Part shown: in pieces, positions 1-60,747 of the stretch
Position numbering within the stretch: position 1 is the stretch's first letter
Layout: every line of letters starts with the position of its first letter
Source of the DNA: an uncultured Gammaproteobacteria bacterium
GTDB lineage: Bacteria; Patescibacteriota; Patescibacteriia; UBA9934
DNA length: 64,000 bases
Direction: 5' to 3'
NCBI GenBank assembly: GCA_964613815.1
Contig: CAZTKG010000001.1
Location: 8,895 to 72,894, forward strand
Position numbers and translations under genes: made by a program
Notes under the pieces: generated by a model
What the model was told of the DNA's origin: nothing
Database searches by the model: none
The model's input: the letters and a program-made list of their open reading frames with translations, nothing else

Positions 1-468
1 ATTGCCCACAATATTCGCAGTCTCTATAACGTTGGTTCCATTTTTCGGAATGCGGCGGGGTTTGGGGTTTTTAAATTGTATTTGACGGGGTATACGGGGG
101 TGCCGCCTCGGAAGGAGATTTCTAAGGTTGCGCTTGGGGCGGAGCGGTTTCAGGATTGGGAAGAGGGGGAGGTTTTTGGGGTTATTGATCGGCTTAAGAA
201 GGAGGGGTATCGGGTGGTTGGGCTTGAGCAGGGGGAAGGAGCGGTTGATTTGGATGGGTTTGAGGTTGGGGATGGGAAGGTTGCGGTTGTGCTTGGGAAT
301 GAGGTTGAGGGGATCGATGAGGGGGTGATTGAAGTGCTTGATGGACTTGTGGAGATTGGGATGGACAAGAAGAAGAGTTTGAATGTGGCGGTTGCTAGTG
401 GGGTGATGATGCATGTTTTGATGGGGAAAATTCGACGAAAAAGTCATGCGGCATATGGTACAATGTAG
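1..468 (+). CDS. SpoU/TrmH-family RNA 2'-O-methyltransferase, 5'-partial (continues upstream of window)
   Basis: Frame 1 is open from nt 1 (IAHNIRSLYNVGSIFRNAAGFGV = SpoU motif I region). Downstream motif SLNVAVASGV near the C-terminus. ORF track 76..468 is the same frame. Confidence 0.7.
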   Translation: MAHNIRSLYNVGSIFRNAAGFGVFKLYLTGYTGVPPRKEISKVALGAERFQDWEEGEVFGVIDRLKKEGYRVVGLEQGEGAVDLDGFEVGDGKVAVVLGNEVEGIDEGVIEVLDGLVEIGMDKKKSLNVAVASGVMMHVLMGKIRRKSHAAYGTM

Positions 469-6338: not shown

Positions 6339-6450
6339 CCCATCCTGAGGAGGGGGGATTTCGCCCCCGACGGAAGGATCTCACGGCAGGGCTGTGCCGC
6401 GCGGAGAGGGATCCTTCCGTCCGTCGGCTACGCTCCCTCCTCAGGATGGG
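6339..6450. repeat. about 110 bp nested palindrome (CCCATCCTGAGGAGG...GACGGAAGGATC...GATCCTTCCGTC...CCTCCTCAGGATGGG), left copy
   Basis: The outer 15 bp arms are perfect inverted repeats and the inner 12 bp arms are also inverted repeats. It sits immediately after the murJ stop. Confidence 0.7.
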
Positions 6451-6508
6451 AGATTAGAAGATATACGCTTTTTATATGGGAGGTGATGGCGTTATTGGGG
6501 TTTATATT

Positions 6509-6775
6509 ATGAGCAACCGGCGGAATACGGTTGTTTATGTTGGGTGCACTCATGACTTGATTCGGCGAGTTTATGAGCATCGTTTAAAGGCGGTAGATGG
6601 GTTTACGAAGAAATATAATTTGACGAAATTGGTTTATTATAAGCCTTTTGGTTGTCATGATTATGCGCGGGAATGGGAAATTGAGTTGAAGAAGTGGCGG
6701 AGAGCGAAGAAGGATAAGTTGATAGAAGAGGAGAATCCGACTTGGAGGGATTTGTGGGATGAGATTGTTGAGTGA
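6509..6775 (+). CDS. GIY-YIG nuclease family protein
   Basis: MSNRRNTVVYVGCTHDLIRRVYEHR...YYKPF...EWEIELKKW: canonical GIY-YIG motif layout. An upstream in-frame ATG at 6476 is possible. Confidence 0.8.
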   Translation: MSNRRNTVVYVGCTHDLIRRVYEHRLKAVDGFTKKYNLTKLVYYKPFGCHDYAREWEIELKKWRRAKKDKLIEEENPTWRDLWDEIVE

Positions 6776-6794
6776 TGTGCGATGTCTTCTGTAG

Positions 6795-6906
6795 CCATCC
6801 TGAGGAGGGAGCATCAGCGATGGACGGAAGGATCTTGTGTTGTGGTGGTGCTGCGCGGGATGGGATCCTTCCGTTCGTCGGCTACGCTCTCCTCTGCTCA
6901 GGATGG
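6795..6906. repeat. about 110 bp nested palindrome, right copy (same orientation as the left copy)
   Basis: CCATCCTGAGGAGG...GACGGAAGGATC...GGATCCTTCCGT...GTCGGCTACGC...CTCAGGATGG. It shares the asymmetric GTCGGCTACGC segment with the left copy, so the two are direct repeats. Confidence 0.7.
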
Positions 6907-15925: not shown

Positions 15926-16032
15926 TTCCCATCTCGACCTTGTGGAGAGATCTGATTGTGATAAAACTGCGAGATCTCTCCGTAAGGTCCCCACTTTGCA
16001 GAATGCTTCGTTAGGGGCAGGCGAGATGGGAG
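15926..16032. repeat. RPE-like palindromic element, copy 1 (long form)
   Basis: TTCCCATCTCGACC..GGAGAGATCT..AGATCTCTCC..AAGGTCCCCACTTTGCAGAATGCTTCGTTAGGGG..GAGATGGGAG. It shares its long right arm with copy 6. Confidence 0.8.
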
Positions 16033-16097: not shown

Positions 16098-17561
16098 ATG
16101 AAAAAAGCTTCAGCTTTAGCGAAAAATACGTTCTATTTGACGCTTGCGATGATTGGGCAGAAAGTGATTGCCTTTCTTTATTTTGCGCTCATTGCTCGAT
16201 ACATGGGGGCCGGGGATACGGGGGCGTATTTTTTGGCGTTGGCGGTGGTTACGGTGCTGACGGTGCTCGATGATGTGGGGGTGACAAGCGTGCTTATTCG
16301 TGAGGTGGCGAAGAAGACGAATGATGCGAAGGTCTGGTGTCGGACGGTGATGGGGGTGAAGGTGGTTACGGTGCCGCTGATGATTTTGATGGCGTTTTTG
16401 GTCCCATCCGTGTTTGGATATGAAGATGGCGTAGCGAAATTGATTCAACTTGCGCTTATTGTGATGGTGGCGGATTCGTTTACGATTTCTTGGTATGGCG
16501 TTTTGCGAGGGCTCCAGAAATTGAAGTTTGAGGCGCTTGGCGTGTTTGTTGGGCAGATTTTGATTGCGGCTGTTGGTGTTGGATGGCTTTTGACGGGGAC
16601 GGCCACGTTGCCTATTTTGATTCTAGCGCTTGCGGCTGGGAGTGTTTGGAATATGTGTTTTAGTGGGTTTTGGATTGCGCGGCATTTGGGGTTGGGGGCG
16701 TTTGTGCCTGGGTATGCGATGGGTTGGAAGCCTTTGAAGATGGCGTTTGCGTTTTTCTTAGCAGCCGTGTTTGTGAAGGTGTACTCGTATGTTGATAGTT
16801 TGATTTTGTCGATGGAGCTTGGGAATGATGCCGTTGGACGGTATGCGGTGGCGTATAAGTTGACGTATGCGTTTCAGTTTTTTCCGTTAGCGTTTGTAGG
16901 GGCGCTTTATCCGGCGATGAGTTCTTGCGCGCGGGATAAGGAGCGATTGAAGCATGTGTTTTTGCAAGCGCTTTGGTATTTGGCGATTATTGGGTTTCCG
17001 ATTGTGTTTGGGATTTGGGCGATGGCGCCGGAGATTATTGGATTGTTTTATGGAGCTGATTATTCGGCGTCGGTTTTGCCGTTGCAAATATTGATCTTTG
17101 TTCTTCTGTTCTTGTTTTTGGATTTTCCGATTGGATCTTTGCTTAACGCTTGTGATCGGCAGGGGACGAAGACGGCGATCATGGGTGGGACGATGGTGGT
17201 TAATGTGGTGGCGAATTTGATGTTGATTCCGATGTATGGCGTGGAAGGAGCGGCGATTGCAGGACTGATTAGTTTTGCATTCCTTTTCTTTGCTGGATGG
17301 GTGTTTATGCAGTCGGTTGTGCGTGTGACGATGGTTGATCTTTGGCGAAGTGTTGGGATGGTGTTGTTGATTTCGATTTTGATGGCGGTCTGTGTGGTGC
17401 TTGTTAAGGCGTGGGTGCATATGCTTGTCGCGATTGGTGTGGGAGCCGTTTTGTATGCCCTGTTATTGGTTTTATGTGGTGTTGTTCGAAAGGAGCACTT
17501 GGCACTCTTTATGTCGATTGTAAAACCTTCGTATGAAGCGCGTATTTCTTCCGACGTTTGA
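16098..17561 (+). CDS. Wzx-like oligosaccharide/polysaccharide flippase (MOP superfamily)
   Basis: About 14 TM helices in a polysaccharide-biosynthesis-protein layout; start taken at MKKASALAKNTF. Confidence 0.65.
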   Translation: MKKASALAKNTFYLTLAMIGQKVIAFLYFALIARYMGAGDTGAYFLALAVVTVLTVLDDVGVTSVLIREVAKKTNDAKVWCRTVMGVKVVTVPLMILMAFLVPSVFGYEDGVAKLIQLALIVMVADSFTISWYGVLRGLQKLKFEALGVFVGQILIAAVGVGWLLTGTATLPILILALAAGSVWNMCFSGFWIARHLGLGAFVPGYAMGWKPLKMAFAFFLAAVFVKVYSYVDSLILSMELGNDAVGRYAVAYKLTYAFQFFPLAFVGALYPAMSSCARDKERLKHVFLQALWYLAIIGFPIVFGIWAMAPEIIGLFYGADYSASVLPLQILIFVLLFLFLDFPIGSLLNACDRQGTKTAIMGGTMVVNVVANLMLIPMYGVEGAAIAGLISFAFLFFAGWVFMQSVVRVTMVDLWRSVGMVLLISILMAVCVVLVKAWVHMLVAIGVGAVLYALLLVLCGVVRKEHLALFMSIVKPSYEARISSDV

Positions 17562-20074: not shown

Positions 20075-20158
20075 TTCCCATCTCGACCGAACGAAGTGAG
20101 TGGAGAGATCTGATTGTGGCAGAGCTGCGAGATCTCTCCGCGTTGGTCGAGATGGGAA
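20075..20158. repeat. RPE-like palindromic element, copy 2
   Basis: CCCATCTCGACC..GGAGAGATCT-(18 nt)-AGATCTCTCC..GGTCGAGATGGGAA. It fills the entire GT2/ligase intergenic region. Confidence 0.8.
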
Positions 20159-20166
20159 GTGGATAT

Positions 20167-21849
20167 ATGCTAGATCAATTTTTTGGAACATATACGTGGT
20201 GGACGGTTGGAGGCATTGTTGGGGTGTTTTTGTTGGCGCTTTTTGGGAAGATCGCGGGTTTGTCGGCGCTTGTTTTGATGTTGCTTGGAGTTTTGATTGC
20301 GTATGCTGCGTGGAATTCATTGGAAGTTGGGATGTTTGTCGCGTTTGTGGAGATGTTTGTTGGGGGGCATGGGCGATTGCTAGCTATGGAGGTGCTTGGG
20401 TTTTCGATGAGTTTGCGGATGGTGATTTTTGGCGTTGTGATGGGGGTGTTTTTGGTGCGGTTTTTGCAAGGTCGATTTAAGATCAATATTTTGCCTTGGC
20501 GGGACGGGCCTTGGATGCTTTTGATGGCTGCGGTGGTTTTGGGGGTTGTTGTGGGAGGGTTTGATCATGATGGAGGCGCGGTATTTGATGATGCGAATGG
20601 GTTTTTGGTTGTTGGCTACTTACTTCCTGTGATTGCAATTCGGTGGACGGCTGCATGGCGGCATCGGATGTTGCAGGCTTGTATGGGGGCGTATGTTTGG
20701 GTGACGGGTTTGACGCTTGGACTTGGATATTTGTTTACGCATTTACCAGGGAAGGCGCTTGATTTTGTATATAAGTTTGTGCGAGATGGGCGGATTGCGG
20801 AGGTGACGTTGCAGACGGTCGGGCATTTTGAAGGGGGGAGGTTTTATGAAGTTTTGATTGCTATGCTGGGGGATGGAGGGTATTGGTTTCGGGTGTTTTT
20901 GCCGAATCAGTTTACGATTTTGATTGGGATGTTTTTGCTTCTCGGTGCGGTGGTTTGGAGTAAGAAAGGGCAGTTGTCGGGACGTGTGATGCTGGTTGTT
21001 GGTGGTTTGATTGGGAGTGGGGCTGCGGCTCTTTTGCTTGGGGGATCGCGGAGTTTTTTGGTGGGAGTTTTGGCTGGTGGGGTTTGTTTGGTGGTTTTGA
21101 TGGTTCTTTCCCATCTCGACCGACCGCAGGGAGTGGAGAGATCTCTCCGCGTTGGTCGAGATGGGAGGATGGATGGTGTAATGAAGATTTTGATGATTGG
21201 TGTTGGGTCGTGTTTGGTTGCGTTCATGACGGCTTGGATTGTGGTGGAATTGCCGGTTCCTGCACGGCCTGATTTGAGTGATGCGTATTTTTACAGTACT
21301 TCTGCCGATGAGGGGCGGGCGAGTGCGGTGGCAAGTCGGTGGGATTTGCTTGATCCGATGATGGATGAGATTAAGGGCGCGCCGATGTTGGGATCTGGTT
21401 TTGGAGAAGAGATTACGTATCAGAGTAGCGATCCACGTGTGATTGCAGAGACTGGGGGCGGAGAGTGGACGACGTATCGGTTTGAGTGGGGGTATTTGGA
21501 TATTTGGTTGAAGATGGGAGTCTTGGGGGTGTTGGCGTTTGGGTGGTATTTGATGTCGATTTTTGTGGGCGTGCGACGGTTTGGTAGAGATCGAATATGG
21601 CTTGGGGTGGCTTTGATGTCGGCTGTTGTTGCGCTTTTTGGGACGCATATATTTTCGCCGTATTTGAATCACCCGATTGGGATTGGGTTTATGGTGTTTG
21701 TGTTGGTGTTTTTTGATGGTAGCGATGATGTCCGGCGAGGGAGGGTTGTTGATGAGGTTTTGGAAAAAATGGATTACGTTCGTGTTTCGGTTGGAGCCAC
21801 TTTTGGGCCGGCCGGACAAAAAGTGGTTCGGGAAGGTTTGGAAAAATAA
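20167..21849 (+). CDS. O-antigen ligase/polymerase-like (Wzy_C domain) membrane protein carrying an in-frame repeat-element insertion
   Basis: LLLGGSRSFLVGVLAGGV (the SR-containing helix) ... [element-encoded SHLDRPQGVERSLRVGRDGRMDG] ... MLGSGFGEEITY...EWGYLDIWLKMGVLGVL (GxGxG and ligase C-terminal motif). Start at MLDQFF; the 20116 start lies in repeat copy 2. Confidence 0.65.
   Translation: MLDQFFGTYTWWTVGGIVGVFLLALFGKIAGLSALVLMLLGVLIAYAAWNSLEVGMFVAFVEMFVGGHGRLLAMEVLGFSMSLRMVIFGVVMGVFLVRFLQGRFKINILPWRDGPWMLLMAAVVLGVVVGGFDHDGGAVFDDANGFLVVGYLLPVIAIRWTAAWRHRMLQACMGAYVWVTGLTLGLGYLFTHLPGKALDFVYKFVRDGRIAEVTLQTVGHFEGGRFYEVLIAMLGDGGYWFRVFLPNQFTILIGMFLLLGAVVWSKKGQLSGRVMLVVGGLIGSGAAALLLGGSRSFLVGVLAGGVCLVVLMVLSHLDRPQGVERSLRVGRDGRMDGVMKILMIGVGSCLVAFMTAWIVVELPVPARPDLSDAYFYSTSADEGRASAVASRWDLLDPMMDEIKGAPMLGSGFGEEITYQSSDPRVIAETGGGEWTTYRFEWGYLDIWLKMGVLGVLAFGWYLMSIFVGVRRFGRDRIWLGVALMSAVVALFGTHIFSPYLNHPIGIGFMVFVLVFFDGSDDVRRGRVVDEVLEKMDYVRVSVGATFGPAGQKVVREGLEK
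21107..21168. repeat. RPE-like palindromic element, copy 3 (short form, inside the ligase-like CDS)
   Basis: CCCATCTCGACC GACCGCAGGGAGT GGAGAGATCTCTCC GCGTT GGTCGAGATGGG: perfect 12 bp terminal inverted repeats and a central 14 bp palindrome. It is read through without a stop. Confidence 0.8.
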
Positions 21850-22933: not shown

Positions 22934-24791
22934 ATGTCGGAGGAAAATGTGCAGGAGCTGGAGCATCAGGACAAGAAGAGTTTTCTTGATTATACGCGCG
23001 GGATTCGTGCGACGTGGACGCTGATTCAGTGGCTTGGGGAGGCGTTCGTGTCTCGTCGAGCGTTCAAGTACATGACGCGGATGTGGATCTGGGTGATGGT
23101 CGCTCATGCTGTGGGTCTTTTGTATCCGTGGTTTATGGGGCTTGCGATCGAGGAGCTGGCGCATGGGACGCAGGGTTCGTTCCGGTTTCGTGTGTGGGGG
23201 ATGTGCGGGCTGATGGCCTGGGCGACGCTCATGCATTGGCGTCGATGGCACAACGTCGAGATGATGATCGTGGAGAACTTTCGGACGCTTGATCGAGAGT
23301 CTCTTGCGATGTTCTTGCGGAAGTCGCTCGGCTTGCACTTGCAGGAGGATTCAAAGCTTTCGTATGGGAATATGGAGAAGGGGTATAATCGAATCGATAA
23401 GATTCAGAGCTCTCTTCTGTTCGTTGCGATTGATGCGTTTGTGTCGCTTGTACTCATCTCGATCATGATGCTTGTCGTCAGTCCGGTGACGTTTGCGATT
23501 ATGGGGGGGTGTCGCTGTGGTCAATGCATTCATTTCGCTTGTGCTCAATCATCGCATGATTGTGCATGGGGAGGTGATTGATGTGGAGTGGCGCGCCTTG
23601 AATCGATGGCGGTTGCAGTTGATTCGGAATGTGCAGCGGGTGATTACGGTTGGGCGTGTAGAAGAGGTGATCGCGGAGTTTGATCGGCGGTTTATGGAGA
23701 TCGCGCCCAAGGATCACAAGCTGTGGATTCCGTATATGCGTGATAGTAATCTCCGTTCCCTTGTGGGTGTGGTTGGGATTGCGGCGCTTGGGCTCTATGT
23801 CGAGCATGCGTATTACGGTGGCACGATGTCGCTTGCGGTTGCGGTGCCTGTGTTTGCGTGGGCGTCGATGATTACGCAGCTTATCCGTGTGCTGAGTGGC
23901 GTGGAGCGAGAGGTCAACTGGTGTACGCCTGCGGCTCGGTCGTTTATGGAGGCGCTTACGACGGAAGATCCTGTTCAGGACGTTGAAGATCCGCATGTGT
24001 TGCCCTCGGATGAGCTTGCTCGGATTGAGTTTCGCAATGTGAGTCATTCTTATGGTGCTGATCTTGTGCTTCAGAACGTTTCCTTTGTGCTTGAGCCTGG
24101 CAAGACGGTGGCGTTGATTGGGCGAAGTGGGAGCGGGAAGAGTACGCTTGGGAATTTACTCTTGCGTGCGATGGATCCGACTTCTGGTTCGATTCTGGTC
24201 AATGGCGTTGATTTGCGTGAAGTTCAGTATTCGTCTTGGATTCGATTGCTTGGGGTGATTCTGCAGAAGCCTCTGGTGATGGATGGGACGATTCGAGACA
24301 ATTTGTTGTTCGGGATCTTTGAGGCAGATCGTTCGCGGTTTACCGATGAGGTTCTGTGGCAGCTGTTGCGTGATCTTGGGATCGACTTTGGGAAGCGGTT
24401 GAAGGACGGCCTCGACACGCGCGTGGGTCACAACGGCTTGAAGCTTTCGGGGGGAGAGCAGCAGCGGCTTATGATTGCCGCGGCGGTGATTCGTGATCCC
24501 AAGGTGATGCTGATCGATGAGGCGACGAGTTCGCTTGATGCGGTTGCGCAGCGGCAGGTTCAAGAAGGGATTGGTCGGGTGCTTTCTCGCGGCATGAGCG
24601 CTGTGATGATTGCACATCGGCTTTCGACGATTCTTGGGGCTGATATGTTCGTGGTGCTTCGGCCTGTGGATGAGCTTGGTCCTGGCGAGAGTCAGATTGA
24701 GACGATTGCGTATTCGGTCGAGGATTTGCACGCTCGGTCCTTGATTTTCCGTGAGCTTGCTGAGCTTGAGGGACTTCAGATTGGAGGGTGA
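22934..24791 (+). CDS. ABC exporter, fused permease/ATP-binding (MsbA-like), reading frame broken by +1 at a G7 tract (23503..23509)
   Basis: ORFs 22934..23581 and 23493..24791 are one gene. FAIMGG | VAVVNAFISLVL becomes continuous if the tract is G6. Walker A GRSGSGKST, signature LSGGEQQR, Walker B MLIDEATSSLD. Confidence 0.7.
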
Positions 24792-24805: not shown

Positions 24806-24832
24806 TCCGGTGATTGTGCCGGAGATTTTTTG
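24806..24832 (+). terminator. intrinsic terminator after the ABC exporter
   Basis: CTCCGG-TGATTGTG-CCGGAG followed by ATTTTTT. Confidence 0.6.
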
Positions 24833-24874
24833 CTTGATACAAAAGTGGTCCGTACGGACCACTTTTGTATCAAG
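24833..24874. repeat. 42 bp perfect palindrome CTTGATACAAAAGTGGTCCGTACGGACCACTTTTGTATCAAG (copy 1); a half-copy lies at 24955..24985
   Basis: Identical to the palindrome at 34854..34897. Both copies lie just 3' of an ABC exporter gene and are followed about 100 bp later by a degenerate right-arm copy. Confidence 0.75.
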
Positions 24875-24995
24875 GAGAGATTTTTGGAATGATGCGCGTT
24901 GTCTTTAGTTTGTGTTTTTTTGGAATGGTTGTTTGTATTGTCTTGTTTTGATTTTGGTCCGTACGGATCATTTATGTATCAAGGTGGATGATTAG

Positions 24996-26134: not shown

Positions 26135-26620
26135 TTAGAGATAAGCTTCTTCGGGGATGTCGCCTTTTGTGATTTTTTTGGCTTTTTCGATGAAGAGGAT
26201 GCCGTCTAGGTGGTCGATTTCGTGTTGGAAGACGATGGAGAGGAGTTTGTCGGCTTTGATGCGGACGGGGTCACCGTTTCGATCTTTGGCTTTGATTTTG
26301 CAGGATTTGTGGCGTTCGACAATGCCCCAGACGCCTGGGATGGAGAGGCAGCCCTCTTGGAAGTCGATCTTCGTGTTTGAGGTGGAGATGATTTTGGGGT
26401 TGATGAAGGCTTGTGGGCCTTTTTTGGTTTCGGCGATGATGATGCGGACGTTTTCTCCGATTTGTGGAGCGGCGATACCGATGCCATTTTCTGCCGCCAT
26501 GGTTTCGATCATGTTGTCGATGAGGGTTTGGATTTTTTCTGACTGAATATCGGCATCAGGTACGGGGGCTGATGGGGTGTTAAGGGTTTTGTTTGGGTGG
26601 GTGAGGACGTTGAGTTTCAT
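26135..26620 (-). CDS. def: peptide deformylase
   Basis: GIGIAAPQIG, EGCLSIPG, HEIDHLDG: the three PDF motifs. Confidence 0.9.
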   Translation of the reverse strand: MKLNVLTHPNKTLNTPSAPVPDADIQSEKIQTLIDNMIETMAAENGIGIAAPQIGENVRIIIAETKKGPQAFINPKIISTSNTKIDFQEGCLSIPGVWGIVERHKSCKIKAKDRNGDPVRIKADKLLSIVFQHEIDHLDGILFIEKAKKITKGDIPEEAYL

Positions 26621-28379
26621 AGGTTGTTAGGGTGGTTTCGATGATGCAGGCGTCGGGGAGGGTTTTTAAGAGAGGGGTTATGGAAGGGGTTTGTAATGGA
26701 TGCGTTCTGATGGTGATTTTGTTGTCTTGTTGTTCTGTTTCTGCTTGAGGGGGGAGGGCGCCAATGAAGTCTGGAGGGACTTGATGGGTTTTTGGGGTGA
26801 TGGTGATTTCATCAAATGCAGGTGGGAGGTGGTAGTCGTTTGCGAGGTCGGTTTGGGATTTGATGAAGGATTCTGCGTTTAGGGTTGGGGTGACGATTTC
26901 TGGGATCCAGGTTTGGACGATGTGCGTTGCGTTTTGTTGTTTTGCGATGTAGTGGGAGCGGTAGAGTGTTCGTGCCATTCTTTGTGTTGCGTCTTGGTCA
27001 GCCATGGAAAGTTCTTGGTCGATGCTGATGTGGGCGATGAGGTTGAACGTTTGAGGAAAGAATGGTTTCCAGATTTGGTTGAAGAAGTATTCTGTGGCGA
27101 TGTTGATGTCGGCGTCTGGGTTGCCTGGATGCTGTTTGTCGATAATTTTGATGGAAGCTTTTGGAAACGCTTTTTGGATGATGGATTTGAGGCGGGCGTT
27201 TCCGATGCCTTTTTGTTTCCAGTCCATGGATCTGCAGTTTGGGCAGGAGGAGGCTTTTTGTGGAAGTTTGCAGAGGGTGCAGAATGGAGCGTTGTCTTGG
27301 TTTTTGAGGATCGATTGGCAGGTTTTGCAGCGGAGAATTTGTTTACAGGTGCCGCATTGGAAGCGTCTTGAAGTACCTTTTCGATTGAATGAAAGTAGCA
27401 CGGATTTAGGGGTTTGTAAAGCGTCAGTGATGGCATCGATGAGGCTAGAGGAGAGGAGTGGGAAGGGGGATTGCTGTTCTTCTGCTTTGAGGTCGATGAT
27501 GGTCAGGGTGGGGTGATTATCGAAAACGGATGCTTGGTAGGGAAGGGGGTCTGTTTGGAGGAGGGTGGCGTTATGCTGTTTGGTGAGAAGTTTTGCGGCG
27601 GTGCGGGCGTCGAATCTTGGGTTTCGTTTGGTGTTTTTGTGGGCTTCGTCGGAGGCGCATTCGATAATGACAAATGAAAGGTTGTGAGCTGGGAGAAGAG
27701 CGCCAACTTTTGTGGCGATGAGTGTTGTGCAAGTGCCAGTGCGCCAGGCTTTTTGGATGGTTTGACGGTGGGGTTTTGACGTTTTGCCGTGGATAGCGAG
27801 AGCGTTTGGGAATGAGAGGGATTTGGCGAGATTGTCGACATCTCTTCCTGTGGGAAGGAGGATGAGGGTTTGGTTTGGGGCGTTTTTGGCGAGGATGGAA
27901 AAAAGCGTCCAGGCGGTTTCTGGAGAAGATTGGATGGTGAGGGATTTGGTGGTTTTGATGGTTGGGAGGAGGGATTTGATGCGGTCGGCTGCGTGTTTTG
28001 AGATGGAGGTCTGGGGGTTTGTTGGATTTTCCCATCTCGACCTTGTGGAGAGATCTCTCGACTGCGCTCGAGATGGGGAAGAAGGGAATATGAAAAAGAG
28101 GAGACTTGGGACGGATTGGCCGATGGAAGTAGCAATAGATTCAAGGCGGGTGATGTCGGCTGAGGTTATTAGATTTTTGATCGCGATGCCGGAGATCGGT
28201 TTGGCGTTTGGAACTTCTGCGGTTTGGTTGATTTTGGCGACGATACCGGTTGTCTTGAAACCTCGGATGGTGATGTAGACGAGGTCGCCGATATTAGTGT
28301 TTACTCCTGCTGGAATTTGGTAATCAAAAACACCGAACCTCCTTGGCATTCGGCGGATTGGGTAGACCTGGGCAATCAT
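26580..28379 (-). CDS. priA: primosomal protein N' (PriA helicase) carrying an in-frame repeat-element insertion near residues 95-115
   Basis: N-terminal MIAQVYPIRRMPRRFGVFDYQIP...GDLVYITIRG. Cys4-Cys4 zinc fingers CGTCKQILRCKTCQS...CTLCK...CPNCRS. Helicase motifs are present. The element encodes FPSSPSRAQSRDLSTRSRWE. Confidence 0.85.
   Translation of the reverse strand: MIAQVYPIRRMPRRFGVFDYQIPAGVNTNIGDLVYITIRGFKTTGIVAKINQTAEVPNAKPISGIAIKNLITSADITRLESIATSIGQSVPSLLFFIFPSSPSRAQSRDLSTRSRWENPTNPQTSISKHAADRIKSLLPTIKTTKSLTIQSSPETAWTLFSILAKNAPNQTLILLPTGRDVDNLAKSLSFPNALAIHGKTSKPHRQTIQKAWRTGTCTTLIATKVGALLPAHNLSFVIIECASDEAHKNTKRNPRFDARTAAKLLTKQHNATLLQTDPLPYQASVFDNHPTLTIIDLKAEEQQSPFPLLSSSLIDAITDALQTPKSVLLSFNRKGTSRRFQCGTCKQILRCKTCQSILKNQDNAPFCTLCKLPQKASSCPNCRSMDWKQKGIGNARLKSIIQKAFPKASIKIIDKQHPGNPDADINIATEYFFNQIWKPFFPQTFNLIAHISIDQELSMADQDATQRMARTLYRSHYIAKQQNATHIVQTWIPEIVTPTLNAESFIKSQTDLANDYHLPPAFDEITITPKTHQVPPDFIGALPPQAETEQQDNKITIRTHPLQTPSITPLLKTLPDACIIETTLTTYETQRPHPPKQNP
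28029..28079. repeat. RPE-like palindromic element, copy 4 (short or truncated form, inside the priA CDS)
   Basis: TTCCCATCTCGACC TTGT GGAGAGATCTCTC GACTGCGC TCGAGATGGGG. Confidence 0.75.
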
Positions 28380-34835: not shown

Positions 34836-34853
34836 TCGTTTGATGTTTCTTCT

Positions 34854-34897
34854 GCTTGATACAAAAGTGGTCCGTACGGACCACTTTTGTATCAAGC
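34854..34897. repeat. 42 bp perfect palindrome (copy 2, CTTGATACAAAAGTGGTCCGTACGGACCACTTTTGTATCAAG); a half-copy lies at 34980..35008
   Basis: Identical to 24833..24874. Confidence 0.75.
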
Positions 34898-35057
34898 AGG
34901 CATGGGGGTGTTTTTTTTGGAAATGATTGATGACTGCCAGTTTTGTCATTGTCTTTTCGATTCTGCCTGTATTTTTTTTGGTCCGTACGGACCATTTTTG
35001 TTACAAGGAGACGGGAGCATCATTTGGTTTAAATGGGGTGTGTTAAAATGGTGGCCT

Positions 35058-36076: not shown

Positions 36077-36813
36077 GTTGATCTCCGTGTGAAAGAAGAA
36101 GGGCCCTGTAGGCTTGTGTCTGGAAGCTGAGTCCGGGCACATGCCTGCAGGGCGAGGGTGGAGCACACCTGGTTGTTTTAGATGCACCTGTTACCATTTT
36201 TAGTGTGGCATGGGGCTAGGAAGATGTCAAGTCTCAGTAGGATATAAAAGTACCCCGTTCTTTCGATTGTGCGCACGAGTAGCATATGCAGTCGGTTTGG
36301 TTTGATTGCCGTGCGAGGATTCACAATTAAGAGACGGGGCAGAGAGGGTCCCTCGGCCGTCAGGGTTGAGCTGTTGGACCAACGAGAAGGGAATTTCCCG
36401 GTGAGATTCTGAGGCCGAGGGAAGGTGGGGTGGTTGGAATATAACAGTCGGTTTGGATCGAGGCAAATAAAAAACTTCCCCCTCTCAGAATCTTTACTAT
36501 GCTTTGGTAGTTGCAACTACTGAAGCGGAATGCTTCAGCGAAGTATTGAGATTCTGAGGGAGGAAGGGTGAAAGGTCCCCGCGACTCGTGTTTAGGCTGG
36601 GCGGGTGAGATGCCGATAGCAGGATGATGCTGGGCCTGAAACACGAGACGGGGGAGGTGGATCCCTCCCGAGGCGGTGCAGATTGCGCGTCATCGCGCCT
36701 TTTGACTTTTGCTGCGTTACCGTCCCGGGAGGGAAGATATTCCTTCTGTTCGTTGGTTGGAAACCCCCGAGGCAATGGCCGACGAACAGAAGGGATGAAA
36801 TGATCGACGGATA

Positions 36814-36842
36814 AGAATAGCAAAGATTTGGGGTTTTGTCAA
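36814..36842 (-). promoter_or_regulatory. sigma70-like promoter (- strand) heading the long non-coding region
   Basis: - strand TTGACA-17 nt-TATTCT (-35 at 36837..36842, -10 at 36814..36819). Confidence 0.45.
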
Positions 36843-36867
36843 GGGGGAGGAGATGATGGGAAGAAAA

Positions 36868-36897: not shown

Positions 36898-36972
36898 TTC
36901 CCATCTCGACCTTGTGGAGAGATCTCTGCGATGATCAAGAAGGAAGGATCTCTCCGCAAGGTTGAGATGGGA
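36898..36972. repeat. RPE-like palindromic element, copy 5
   Basis: TTCCCATCTCGACC TTGT GGAGAGATCTCT-(20 nt)-ATCTCTCC GCAAGG TTGAGATGGGAA. Confidence 0.8.
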
Positions 36973-39698: not shown

Positions 39699-39830
39699 GT
39701 TGAATCGCTTCGCTCGTTGAATCACTCGCCTGCGGCATCGTTCGTTTAAAGCGTTGATTCCGGAATCAACGAGCGCAGCGATTCAACGAGTTTCGGCGAT
39801 TAGTCGAACGATTCAACGATTTAAACGTTA
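39699..39830. repeat. about 120 bp palindromic intergenic repeat, copy A (TCGTTGAATCACTCGCC...CGTTGATTCCGGAATCAACG...GATTCAACGATTTAAACGTT)
   Basis: Three copies: A 39699..39830, B 59109..59255, C 60629..60747. Contains the 20 bp perfect palindrome CGTTGATTCCGGAATCAACG. Each copy abuts the 5' end of a - strand gene. Confidence 0.8.
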
Positions 39831-59108: not shown

Positions 59109-59255
59109 GTCGTTGAATCACTCCCGGCGGGGCCGGGTTGTTCGTTTAAGGCGTTGATTTCGGAATGAACGAGCGGAGTCACGTCGTTCGCGAACGACGT
59201 GGCGGAGCGATTAAACGAGTTAGGGCGTTAGCCCACGATTCAACGACTTAAACGT
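59109..59255. repeat. about 120 bp palindromic intergenic repeat, copy B (with a 24 nt hairpin insertion)
   Basis: Aligns end-to-end with copies A and C. Confidence 0.8.
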
Positions 59256-59257
59256 TT

Positions 59258-60083: not shown

Positions 60084-60190
60084 TCCCATCTCGAGCATCG
60101 TTGAGAGATCTGATGGGGGCAGGGCTGCAAGATCTCTCCACAAGGTCCCCACTTTGCAGAATGCTTCGTTAGGGGTAGGCGAGATGGGAG
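60084..60190. repeat. RPE-like palindromic element, copy 6 (long form)
   Basis: TTCCCATCTCGAGC..GAGAGATCT-(18 nt)-AGATCTCTCC..AAGGTCCCCACTTTGCAGAATGCTTCGTTAGGGG..GAGATGGGAG. Confidence 0.8.
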
Positions 60191-60628: not shown

Positions 60629-60745
60629 TAAATCGTTGAATCACTCGCCGACGGCATCGTTCGTTTAAGGCGTTGATTCCGGAATCAACGAGCGGAGCGA
60701 TTAAACGAGTTTGGGCGATTAGTCCACGATTCAACGATTTAAACG

Positions 60746-60747
<2 letters not shown>
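60629..60747. repeat. about 120 bp palindromic intergenic repeat, copy C (fills the atpD-atpC intercistronic gap)
   Basis: AATCGTTGAATCACTCGCCGACGGCATCGTTCGTTTAAGGCGTTGATTCCGGAATCAACGAGCGGAGCGATTAAACGAGTTTGGGCGATTAGTCCACGATTCAACGATTTAAACGTT. Confidence 0.8.

What the first reader, a model, noticed from the sequence alone, without database searches (positions are those of the whole stretch)
21107..21168. Palindromic element inserted in-frame inside the O-antigen-ligase-like (Wzy_C) gene
The ORF 20167..21849 reads straight through copy 3, which encodes SHLDRPQGVERSLRVGRDGRMDG. The insert sits between the SR-containing helix (LLLGGSRSFLVGVLAGG) and the periplasmic GxGxG loop (MLGSGFGEE...EWGYLDIWL).

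The element adds about 20 residues in a predicted loop and leaves the ligase motifs on both sides intact. The host protein may tolerate it, or the insertion may create a new loop.

On the opposite strand the same element would encode an RDLSTRSRWE-type peptide, as it does in priA. Both orientations are therefore stop-free.
Basis: partly seen in the sequence, partly recalled or inferred. Interest (0 to 1): 0.8.

Follow-up and report, generated by a model that had tools for sequence, protein, structure and literature searches.

The report
Selfish palindromic repeat inside a gene
A roughly 60-base hairpin-forming repeat that is scattered around this small Uhrbacteria (CPR) genome sits in-frame inside an O-antigen-ligase-like membrane protein gene and adds about 15 residues to a short cytoplasmic loop; this is a real but already known kind of event, like the palindromic elements of Rickettsia.

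Summary
Window 21107-21168 is one of six copies of a nested palindrome: outer stem TCCCATCTCGACC/GGTCGAGATGGGA, inner stem GGAGAGATCT/AGATCTCTCC. ORF 20167-21849 reads straight through it; 21109-21168 is exactly 20 codons, SHLDRPQGVERSLRVGRDGR.

In about 108 homologues (45% identity or less) the distance between the SRSF and SRW anchors is 74-80 residues. Here it is 92, and no homologue has the segment. All 65 invariant columns of the 24-sequence alignment are kept. An AlphaFold model places the segment in a lower-confidence loop between two transmembrane helices, on the predicted cytoplasmic side. Eight contigs from independent assemblies encode the same protein.

The best reading is a REP/MITE-like selfish repeat tolerated in a loop, analogous to Rickettsia palindromic elements. 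It probably derives from the near-identical copy about 1 kb away, just upstream of the same gene.

Several things remain unshown:
- No empty-site allele was found.
- No target-site duplication and no transposase were found.
- The priA copy is not a clear net insertion.

One unexpected result: three arm subtypes recur almost base-for-base in Anaerococcus, and related arms occur in Pedobacter and Doudnabacteria.

Verdict: new member of a known kind, moderate interest.

The parts
21107..21168 (+). Copy C of the nested palindromic repeat, inside the ligase-like gene. 21109-21168 is 20 in-frame codons, SHLDRPQGVERSLRVGRDGR, residues 315-334 of the 560-aa protein.
21109..21121 (.). Left outer stem of copy C, TCCCATCTCGACC.
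21135..21148 (.). Fused inner stems of copy C, GGAGAGATCTCTCC. It is a perfect 14-nt palindrome with no apical loop. Copy B carries 24 more nt here, between two AGATCT hexamers.
21154..21166 (.). Right outer stem of copy C, GGTCGAGATGGGA.
20167..21849 (+). Host gene: Wzy_C/WaaL-like membrane glycan ligase or polymerase homologue, 560 aa. It lies in a polysaccharide cluster (Wzx-like flippase, GT4, GT2, GT2, this gene).
20076..20157 (.). Copy B, 82 nt, intergenic. It ends 10 nt before the ligase ATG and is the closest relative of copy C: the right arms are identical and the left arms differ at 3 spacer positions. Gene callers start the ORF at GTG 20116, inside this copy.
   Evidence: (families D5, D16)
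15927..16032 (.). Copy A, 106 nt, intergenic between rpsI and the flippase gene. It carries a 32-nt extra segment in the right arm.
28030..28078 (.). Copy D, 49 nt, inside the priA-like ORF 26580-28379 (minus strand). It encodes PSSPSRAQSRDLSTRSRWE in the variable linker after the 3'BD domain.
36899..36972 (.). Copy E, 74 nt, intergenic, downstream of clpB (minus strand). It is partly decayed, for example by a C->T change in the right outer stem.
60084..60190 (.). Copy F, 107 nt, intergenic, immediately downstream of atpC (minus strand). It carries the same 32-nt extra segment as copy A.
   Evidence: (family D4)

Best explanation
Copy C is a member of a short, non-coding, hairpin-forming interspersed repeat family (REP/REPIN- or MITE-like) of this Candidatus Uhrbacteria genome. 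It has become lodged in the coding sequence of a Wzy_C/WaaL-like membrane protein.

Shown:
- The DNA belongs to a dispersed family whose other members are mostly intergenic.
- The copy occupies exactly 20 codons with no stop.
- It coincides with a lineage-specific gain of 15-16 residues in a short inter-helix loop that is cytoplasmic by the positive-inside rule.
- Every residue that is invariant in the family is retained.

Inferred:
- The copy arose by local spread from copy B, which lies about 1 kb away just upstream of the same gene. That step was either transposition in trans or recombination/gene conversion. C is B minus the 24 nt between the two AGATCT hexamers, plus 3 spacer substitutions, one of which removes the only in-frame stop of B.
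- It survives because only short, stop-free, in-frame copies in tolerant loops escape purifying selection.
- The extra loop is neutral baggage rather than a new function.
- Because the genome has an extreme strand bias (G far exceeds C on this strand), the still-perfect 13+10 bp stems indicate a recent insertion, or homogenisation or selection on the hairpin.
For: Family and significance: six elements, 12 arms, nothing else; stable hairpins; the z-score is -4.5 or lower for five of six, and the longest copy, F, gives only -1.5.

In-frame and stop-free.

Lineage-specific gain: columns 364-378; 92 residues against 74-80 in about 108 homologues.

Intact gene: (all 65 invariant columns of the 24-sequence alignment include this protein). 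One search gives pLDDT 84 and pTM 0.85, with insert blocks at 61-76 between helices 295-317 and 337-361. One search gives WaaL 7tpg as the top fold hit.

Loop sidedness.

Not an assembly artefact: (8 contigs, several samples).

Selection against coding insertions: 5 of 8 copies in about 84 kb are intergenic although 90% of the DNA is coding, P = 4e-4. The two fully intragenic copies are the two shortest and the only ones open in all six frames.

B-C relatedness: (D5 87%, D16 92%).

Compositional contrast: GC skew is 0.11 in the copy against 0.54 in the rest of the gene.

Precedent: Rickettsia palindromic elements, and REPs inside genes including replication and repair genes (PMC3733652, PMC10969869).
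Against: No empty-site allele or close orthologue exists in the databases searched; the next relative is 45% identical. The insertion event is therefore inferred, not observed.

The net gain is 15-16 residues, not 20. Either a few native codons were lost or the boundaries are wrong.

No target-site duplication is seen at any boundary choice. No transposase was found: nothing in the window ORFs that were Pfam-scanned (about ten ORFs of 150 aa or more between 46.8 and 55 kb were not scanned) and nothing in the precomputed Pfam annotations of the genes in the flanking loci.

The priA copy shows no clear net insertion.

Pfam Wzy_C does not hit the protein even after the insert is removed in silico.

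There are no expression data. A -40 kcal/mol hairpin inside an mRNA could affect translation or stability.
Confidence: 0.75

Rival explanations
1. Exaptation. The inserted sequence now does something. Either the arginine-rich cytoplasmic loop has a role as protein (interaction or regulation), or the very stable hairpin acts as RNA (ribosome pausing during membrane insertion, an RNase III processing site, or mRNA stabilisation).
For: The stems are still perfect despite an extreme strand-biased composition. The hairpin is very stable. The copy is fixed in all 8 contigs. The loop is net positive, as expected for a cytoplasmic loop.
Against: None of about 108 homologues needs such a loop. The same sequence occurs in unrelated contexts and reading frames. 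Model confidence in the segment is low. Perfect stems are equally explained by a recent insertion. Every strain sampled is near-identical, so fixation says little.
Confidence: 0.1
2. Silent inactivation. The ORF is intact but the protein is non-functional, a young pseudogene that has not yet accumulated stops.
For: Pfam Wzy_C does not recognise the protein. The insertion appears recent.
Against: Pfam also misses the insert-free version and the homologue P0002, so this is a sensitivity limit of the model. All family-invariant residues are retained. The model is confident outside the loop. The insert lies in a short connecting loop, far from the conserved outer-loop motifs.
Confidence: 0.1
3. 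Not an insertion. The segment is native to the gene and the intergenic copies derive from it. Alternatively, the resemblance is convergent or an assembly artefact.
For: No empty site has been observed. In priA the element replaces linker residues rather than adding them.
Against: Homologues lack the segment. The same arms occur in intergenic DNA of unrelated phyla. Independent assemblies agree.
Confidence: 0.03

Closest known systems
Rickettsia palindromic elements (RPEs; Ogata et al. 2000, as summarised in PMC10969869 and PMC3733652)
   Same: Both are dispersed palindromic repeats found in intergenic DNA and also in-frame inside housekeeping genes of a small genome. Both add a peptide segment without destroying conserved motifs and are readable without stops.
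   Different: RPEs are about 100-150 bp and confined to Rickettsia. This element is 49-107 nt, occurs in a CPR bacterium and has a different sequence (my own knowledge; sequence homology to RPEs was not tested). Only 2 fully intragenic copies were seen here, against dozens in R. conorii.
REP / REPIN elements mobilised by RAYT transposases (GTAG- or CGTC-tagged REPs, PMC3733652)
   Same: Both consist of short palindromic units paired in inverted orientation to make a larger hairpin. Both sit mostly downstream of genes or between them, with some copies inside or overlapping ORFs, notably replication and repair genes (here priA). Tandem clusters occur in Anaerococcus.
   Different: There is no conserved GTAG or CGTC tag in the arms. 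No RAYT/Y1 transposase turned up in the Pfam scans and precomputed gene annotations covering the window and its flanks (about 84 kb, incomplete for 46.8-55 kb) or, by ORF reading without a Pfam scan, next to the Anaerococcus clusters.
Bacterial MITEs (Correia/NEMIS, ERIC, RUP, QMITE1 and others; PMC10969869)
   Same: Both have terminal inverted repeats, a small size and no coding capacity of their own, and both occasionally form in-frame fusions with host ORFs.
   Different: No target-site duplication and no parent IS with matching ends was identified.
[quoted passage not shown]
   Same: Both are coding DNA with dyad symmetry and a punctate distribution across distant taxa.
   Different: PARCELs are tandem arrays of 25-residue amphipathic repeats in surface proteins. 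This is a single interspersed copy whose relatives are mostly non-coding.

Membership tests
RPE-like in-frame palindromic insertion (functional class) | Member of a dispersed palindromic repeat family | tested here: met
   Six copies in 64 kb, plus two more in the flanks.
RPE-like in-frame palindromic insertion (functional class) | Lies inside a conserved protein gene, in frame and without a stop, and is absent from homologues | tested here: met
   The closest insert-free homologue is only 45% identical.
RPE-like in-frame palindromic insertion (functional class) | The encoded segment sits in a loop or on the surface, compatible with the fold | tested here: met
   The AlphaFold model and hydropathy profile agree on a loop between helices 295-317 and 337-361.
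Rickettsia RPE families proper | Sequence homology to RPE-1..10 | not tested
The host phylum and the element length differ.
REP/REPIN-RAYT | Conserved GTAG or CGTC tetranucleotide at the REP 5' end | tested here: not met
   The aligned arms contain neither tag at a conserved position.
REP/REPIN-RAYT | Cognate RAYT (Y1_Tnp) gene in the genome, typically flanked by REPs | tested here: inconclusive
   None appeared in the window ORFs scanned against Pfam or in the precomputed annotations of the flanking loci. About ten window ORFs between 46.8 and 55 kb were not scanned, and the rest of the 579-kb scaffold could not be read.
REP/REPIN-RAYT | Inverted pairs forming a long hairpin, mostly extragenic and downstream of genes | tested here: met
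MITE | Terminal inverted repeats | tested here: met
   13-bp outer stems.
MITE | Target-site duplication | tested here: not met
   No direct repeat of 2-8 nt is shared by two or more copies at any boundary offset from 0 to 7.
Wzy_C / WaaL-like O-antigen ligase family (host gene) | Pfam PF04932 match | tested here: not met
   No hit with or without the insert. Most homologues carry PF04932, and P0005 scores 3e-11.
Wzy_C / WaaL-like O-antigen ligase family (host gene) | WaaL-like multi-helix fold with a large outer loop | tested here: met
   The top PDB match is WaaL 7tpg: E = 8e-4, probability 1.0, but TM-score only 0.36/0.46.

The most novel reading that the evidence does not exclude
The element may belong to an undescribed, unusually sequence-conserved super-family of nested palindromes shared across phyla.

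Three arm subtypes are shared almost base-for-base between this 49%-GC Uhrbacterium and 31%-GC Anaerococcus genomes:
- CCATCTCGACC-TTGT-GGAGAGATCT
- CCATCTCGAGC-GCAGTC-GAGAGATCT
- the 34-nt CCATCTCGACCGAaCGaAGtGAGTGGAGAGATCT

For example, one arm is 35 of 36 identical to an A. nagyae arm. Related arms occur in Pedobacter and Doudnabacteria.

Such conservation would imply a conserved trans-acting partner (an unidentified transposase, nuclease or host factor) and horizontal spread. It would also suggest that the six-frame-open core lets the family colonise coding DNA in gene-dense genomes.
Probability: 0.25. Interest if true: 0.65.

Novelty: new member of a known kind. Interest (0 to 1): 0.4.

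Why it matters
The finding shows that selfish hairpin repeats can invade conserved genes in CPR/Patescibacteria, which have very small, about 90% coding genomes, and can persist as extra protein loops. That extends the Rickettsia RPE phenomenon to a very different lineage.

There is a practical consequence for annotation:
- Gene callers start the ligase ORF inside copy B.
- A half copy supplies the C-terminal tail of a Dus gene.
- Profile models may under-score such proteins.

The cross-phylum near-identity of the arms is the part that could lead somewhere new, namely to an unknown mobilising or binding factor.

Tried and rejected
- **Rfam.** No family matches any copy at gathering or permissive thresholds.
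- **Element-encoded peptides.** A search of the 5.8-billion-protein index with the peptides from all six frames gave nothing. Twenty-residue matches are below the statistical power of that search; even the host protein did not score.
- **Metagenome scan.** The exact pattern returned only two loci, both Anaerococcus-like, and not the source contig.
- **Viral contigs.** No exact match. A degenerate pattern gave isolated single arms or coding coincidences.
- **Plasmid BLAST.** No match.
- **Genome-scan hits L009 and L010.** These sit in GC-rich sequence with no partner arm or palindrome around the match, so I set them aside as chance or coding matches. I did not translate or Pfam-scan them; they look like a conserved efflux-pump motif from memory only.
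- **Target-site duplication.** None found.
- **Transposase or RAYT.** None in the ORFs and gene annotations examined in the window and flanking loci. Next to the Anaerococcus clusters, ORFs were only listed and read, not scanned.
- **'All copies share one orientation'.** Rejected. By arm subtype, copy D is inverted relative to B and C.
- **Literature search by sequence strings.** This returned only primers and shRNA loops. No paper on REPs or MITEs in CPR was found.
- **PARCELs.** Considered and rejected, because they are tandem coding repeats.
- **Pfam miss caused by the insert.** Rejected, because the in-silico deletion is also missed.

Full report
**What is at the coordinates.** Window 21107-21168 reads TT-TCCCATCTCGACC-GACCGCAGGGAGT-GGAGAGATCTCTCC-GCGTT-GGTCGAGATGGGA-GG. 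It is a nested palindrome. A 13-bp outer stem encloses a 14-nt perfect inner palindrome made of two fused 10-nt arms, GGAGAGATCT and AGATCTCTCC. As single-stranded RNA it folds at -40.7 kcal/mol, with z = -5.4 and 0 of 200 shuffles as stable.

The 13-mer GGTCGAGATGGGA (up to 1 mismatch) occurs 9 times in the window against 0.19 expected. A profile of the arms finds exactly 12 arms, i.e. six elements, and nothing else down to E of about 50. The copies are:
- A, 15927-16032
- B, 20076-20157
- C, 21109-21166 (this finding)
- D, 28030-28078
- E, 36899-36972
- F, 60084-60190

**Coding context.** The ORF 20116/20167-21849 reads through copy C. Homologues begin at the residue aligned with ATG 20167. 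Gene callers instead used GTG 20116, which lies inside copy B. Residue 315 starts at 21109, so 21109-21168 is exactly 20 codons, SHLDRPQGVERSLRVGRDGR.

The neighbours are a Wzx-type flippase, a GT4 and two GT2 genes, so this is a polysaccharide cluster. Best hits name Candidatus Uhrbacteria / Patescibacteria.

**Is it an insertion?** The protein database holds only a near-identical cluster, then homologues at 45% identity or less. That cluster comprises P0001 and P0121 on 8 contigs from JGI, ENA, NCBI and Logan, all carrying the segment.

In a 24-sequence alignment the window protein has about 15 extra columns (364-378) exactly at the element. I also measured the distance between two invariant anchors, SRSF and SRW, across the retrieved homologues. 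In 108 of them it is 74-80 residues (median 76), and the apparent outliers are regex misfires. In the window protein it is 92. No homologue has the segment.

All 65 invariant columns of that alignment include this protein.

The limit is that no close empty-site orthologue exists. Removing 60 nt would leave 72 residues, slightly below the family minimum of 74. The event was therefore not demonstrably a clean 60-nt indel.

**Where in the protein.** A hydropathy and positive-inside analysis puts residues 313-341 between a helix containing SRSF and the next helix. The 89-residue acidic loop 361-449, which carries the conserved GSGFG and YRFEWGY motifs, falls on the opposite (outer) side. The insert loop is therefore predicted to be cytoplasmic.

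An AlphaFold2 model built with the alignment has mean pLDDT 84 and pTM 0.85. The insert lies between helices 295-317 and 337-361, in blocks of pLDDT 61-76. The best PDB fold match is the WaaL O-antigen ligase 7tpg, with E = 8e-4 and probability 1.0 but TM-score only 0.36/0.46.

Pfam Wzy_C does not hit the protein. It also misses a version with the insert deleted and the homologue P0002, while it hits P0005 at 3e-11. Family assignment therefore rests on homology and fold.

**The family and selection on it.** Copies C and D, the two fully intragenic ones, are the two shortest (58 and 49 nt) and the only ones open in all six frames. A, B, E and F carry stops in 1-3 frames, mostly from their apical loops or extra segments.

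I fetched about 10 kb on either side of the window and found two more copies. One is a short copy filling the spacer between the Colicin_V and TatD genes. The other is a half copy that encodes the last roughly 15 residues of a Dus gene.

Of these 8 copies, 5 are intergenic although 90% of the DNA is coding (P = 4e-4). This fits purifying selection against most coding insertions.

Copy B sits 10 nt upstream of the ligase start and is C's closest relative. Their right arms are identical and their left arms differ at 3 spacer positions. B has 24 more nt, lying between two AGATCT hexamers (families D5 and D16). In C's reading frame, B has one stop (TGA), which is GGA in C. I infer a local origin of C from B or from a B-like copy.

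No target-site duplication is detectable. The arms carry no GTAG or CGTC tag. No transposase appeared in the window ORFs I scanned against Pfam or in the precomputed annotations of the flanking loci. About ten window ORFs of 150 aa or more between 46.8 and 55 kb were not scanned. The mobilisation mechanism is therefore unknown.

**The priA copy.** Copy D encodes PSSPSRAQSRDLSTRSRWE on the minus strand, in the linker after the 3'BD domain. That linker is 45 residues here and 37-46 in 12 homologues. The element occupies a variable linker without a clear net gain. The observation that a second gene is read through is correct, but it is not independent proof of a clean insertion.

Di Nocera et al. 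noted that REPs inside genes often lie in replication and repair genes (PMC3733652). PriA fits that pattern.

**Composition.** The plus strand has a GC skew of 0.32 over the whole window. At third codon positions the skew is 0.60-0.86 for genes on both strands. Copy C has a skew of 0.11, against 0.54 for the rest of the gene.

A palindrome cannot be skewed. Perfect stems in such a mutational regime imply a recent insertion, homogenisation or selection on the hairpin. Copies E and F show decay in the expected directions, C->T and G->T.

**Beyond this genome.** A scan of one genome per GTDB species with TCCCATCTCGACC-N(2-15)-GGAGAGATCT gave 9 loci. Two sit in GC-rich sequence with no palindrome around the match and were set aside as chance or coding matches; I did not translate them. 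The other seven are similar nested palindromes in four Anaerococcus genomes, Pedobacter alluvionis and a Doudnabacteria MAG. The metagenome scan added two more Anaerococcus-like loci.

Three arm subtypes are shared nearly base-for-base. For example, window B's arm TCCCATCTCGACCGAACGAAGTGAGTGGAGAGATCT is 35 of 36 identical to an A. nagyae arm. Window C's arm and D's right arm have counterparts in L013 that differ at 1-2 positions.

In Anaerococcus the elements form tandem clusters in intergenic DNA between housekeeping genes. No transposase-like ORF was evident nearby, though those ORFs were only listed and read, not scanned.

REP families are usually species-specific (my own knowledge), so this conservation is unexplained.

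**Comparison with known systems.** The case works like Rickettsia palindromic elements, and like REPs or MITEs that fuse in-frame with host ORFs (PMC10969869, PMC3733652). It fails two REP-RAYT criteria (no tag, no RAYT seen) and one MITE criterion (no target-site duplication). I therefore file it by behaviour, not as a member of either family.

I found no report of such elements in CPR bacteria in the held library.

**Verdict.** This is a new member of a known kind. Interest is moderate (0.4), with some upside from the cross-phylum conservation of the arms.

Noticed in passing
window 1-64000: The strand asymmetry is extreme. Plus-strand GC skew is 0.32 overall and up to 0.5 in places, and AT skew is -0.23. 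At third codon positions GC skew is 0.60-0.86 for genes on both strands, so the bias follows the DNA strand (replication?) and not transcription. There is no skew switch in 64 kb. Long spurious antisense ORFs result, because the AC-rich strand lacks stops.
   Followed up: partly
window 6369-6889: A 99-aa stand-alone GIY-YIG nuclease gene (6476-6775, Pfam E = 2e-13) is bracketed by two copies of a different 67-nt palindromic repeat (6369-6435 and 6823-6889). This may be a small mobile unit.
   Followed up: partly
L003-L008, L011-L013 (Anaerococcus, Pedobacter, Doudnabacteria): Nested palindromes with arms nearly identical to the window's three arm subtypes occur in distant phyla (35 of 36 identity to an A. 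nagyae arm). In Anaerococcus they form tandem intergenic clusters with a period of about 121/242 nt.
   Followed up: partly
window 20116-20166: Public gene calls start the ligase ORF at GTG 20116, inside repeat copy B (577 aa). Homologues align from ATG 20167 (560 aa). The right end of the element (GAGATGGGAAG) lies 6-10 nt upstream of that ATG and might serve as its ribosome-binding site.
   Followed up: partly
L014 414-1463 (about 9 kb upstream of the window): A half copy of the element supplies the last roughly 15 codons and the stop region of a Dus (dihydrouridine synthase) gene. The Dus domain ends at residue 319 of 349.
   Followed up: yes
window 24828-24986 and 34850-35010; 39714-39829, 59140-59256, 60633-60747: At least two further palindromic repeat families exist. 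One is TTGATACAAAAGTGGTCCGTACGGACCACTTTTGTATCAAG. The other is a roughly 90-nt family containing CGTTGATTCCGGAATCAACG. One copy of the second family overlaps the called start of clpB.
   Followed up: no
window about 23510: The window differs from the JGI contigs L001 and L002 by a 1-nt indel in the ABC-transporter region (ORFs 22934-23581 and 23493-24791) and by one SNP at 16357. Otherwise the strains are identical over the stretches that could be compared base-by-base (about 13 kb and 7 kb upstream of the indel).
   Followed up: no
window 36360-36850: This stretch of about 500 nt upstream of copy E has no convincing ORF and no Rfam hit at gathering threshold. It may be an unrecognised RNA gene or decayed DNA.
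   Followed up: no
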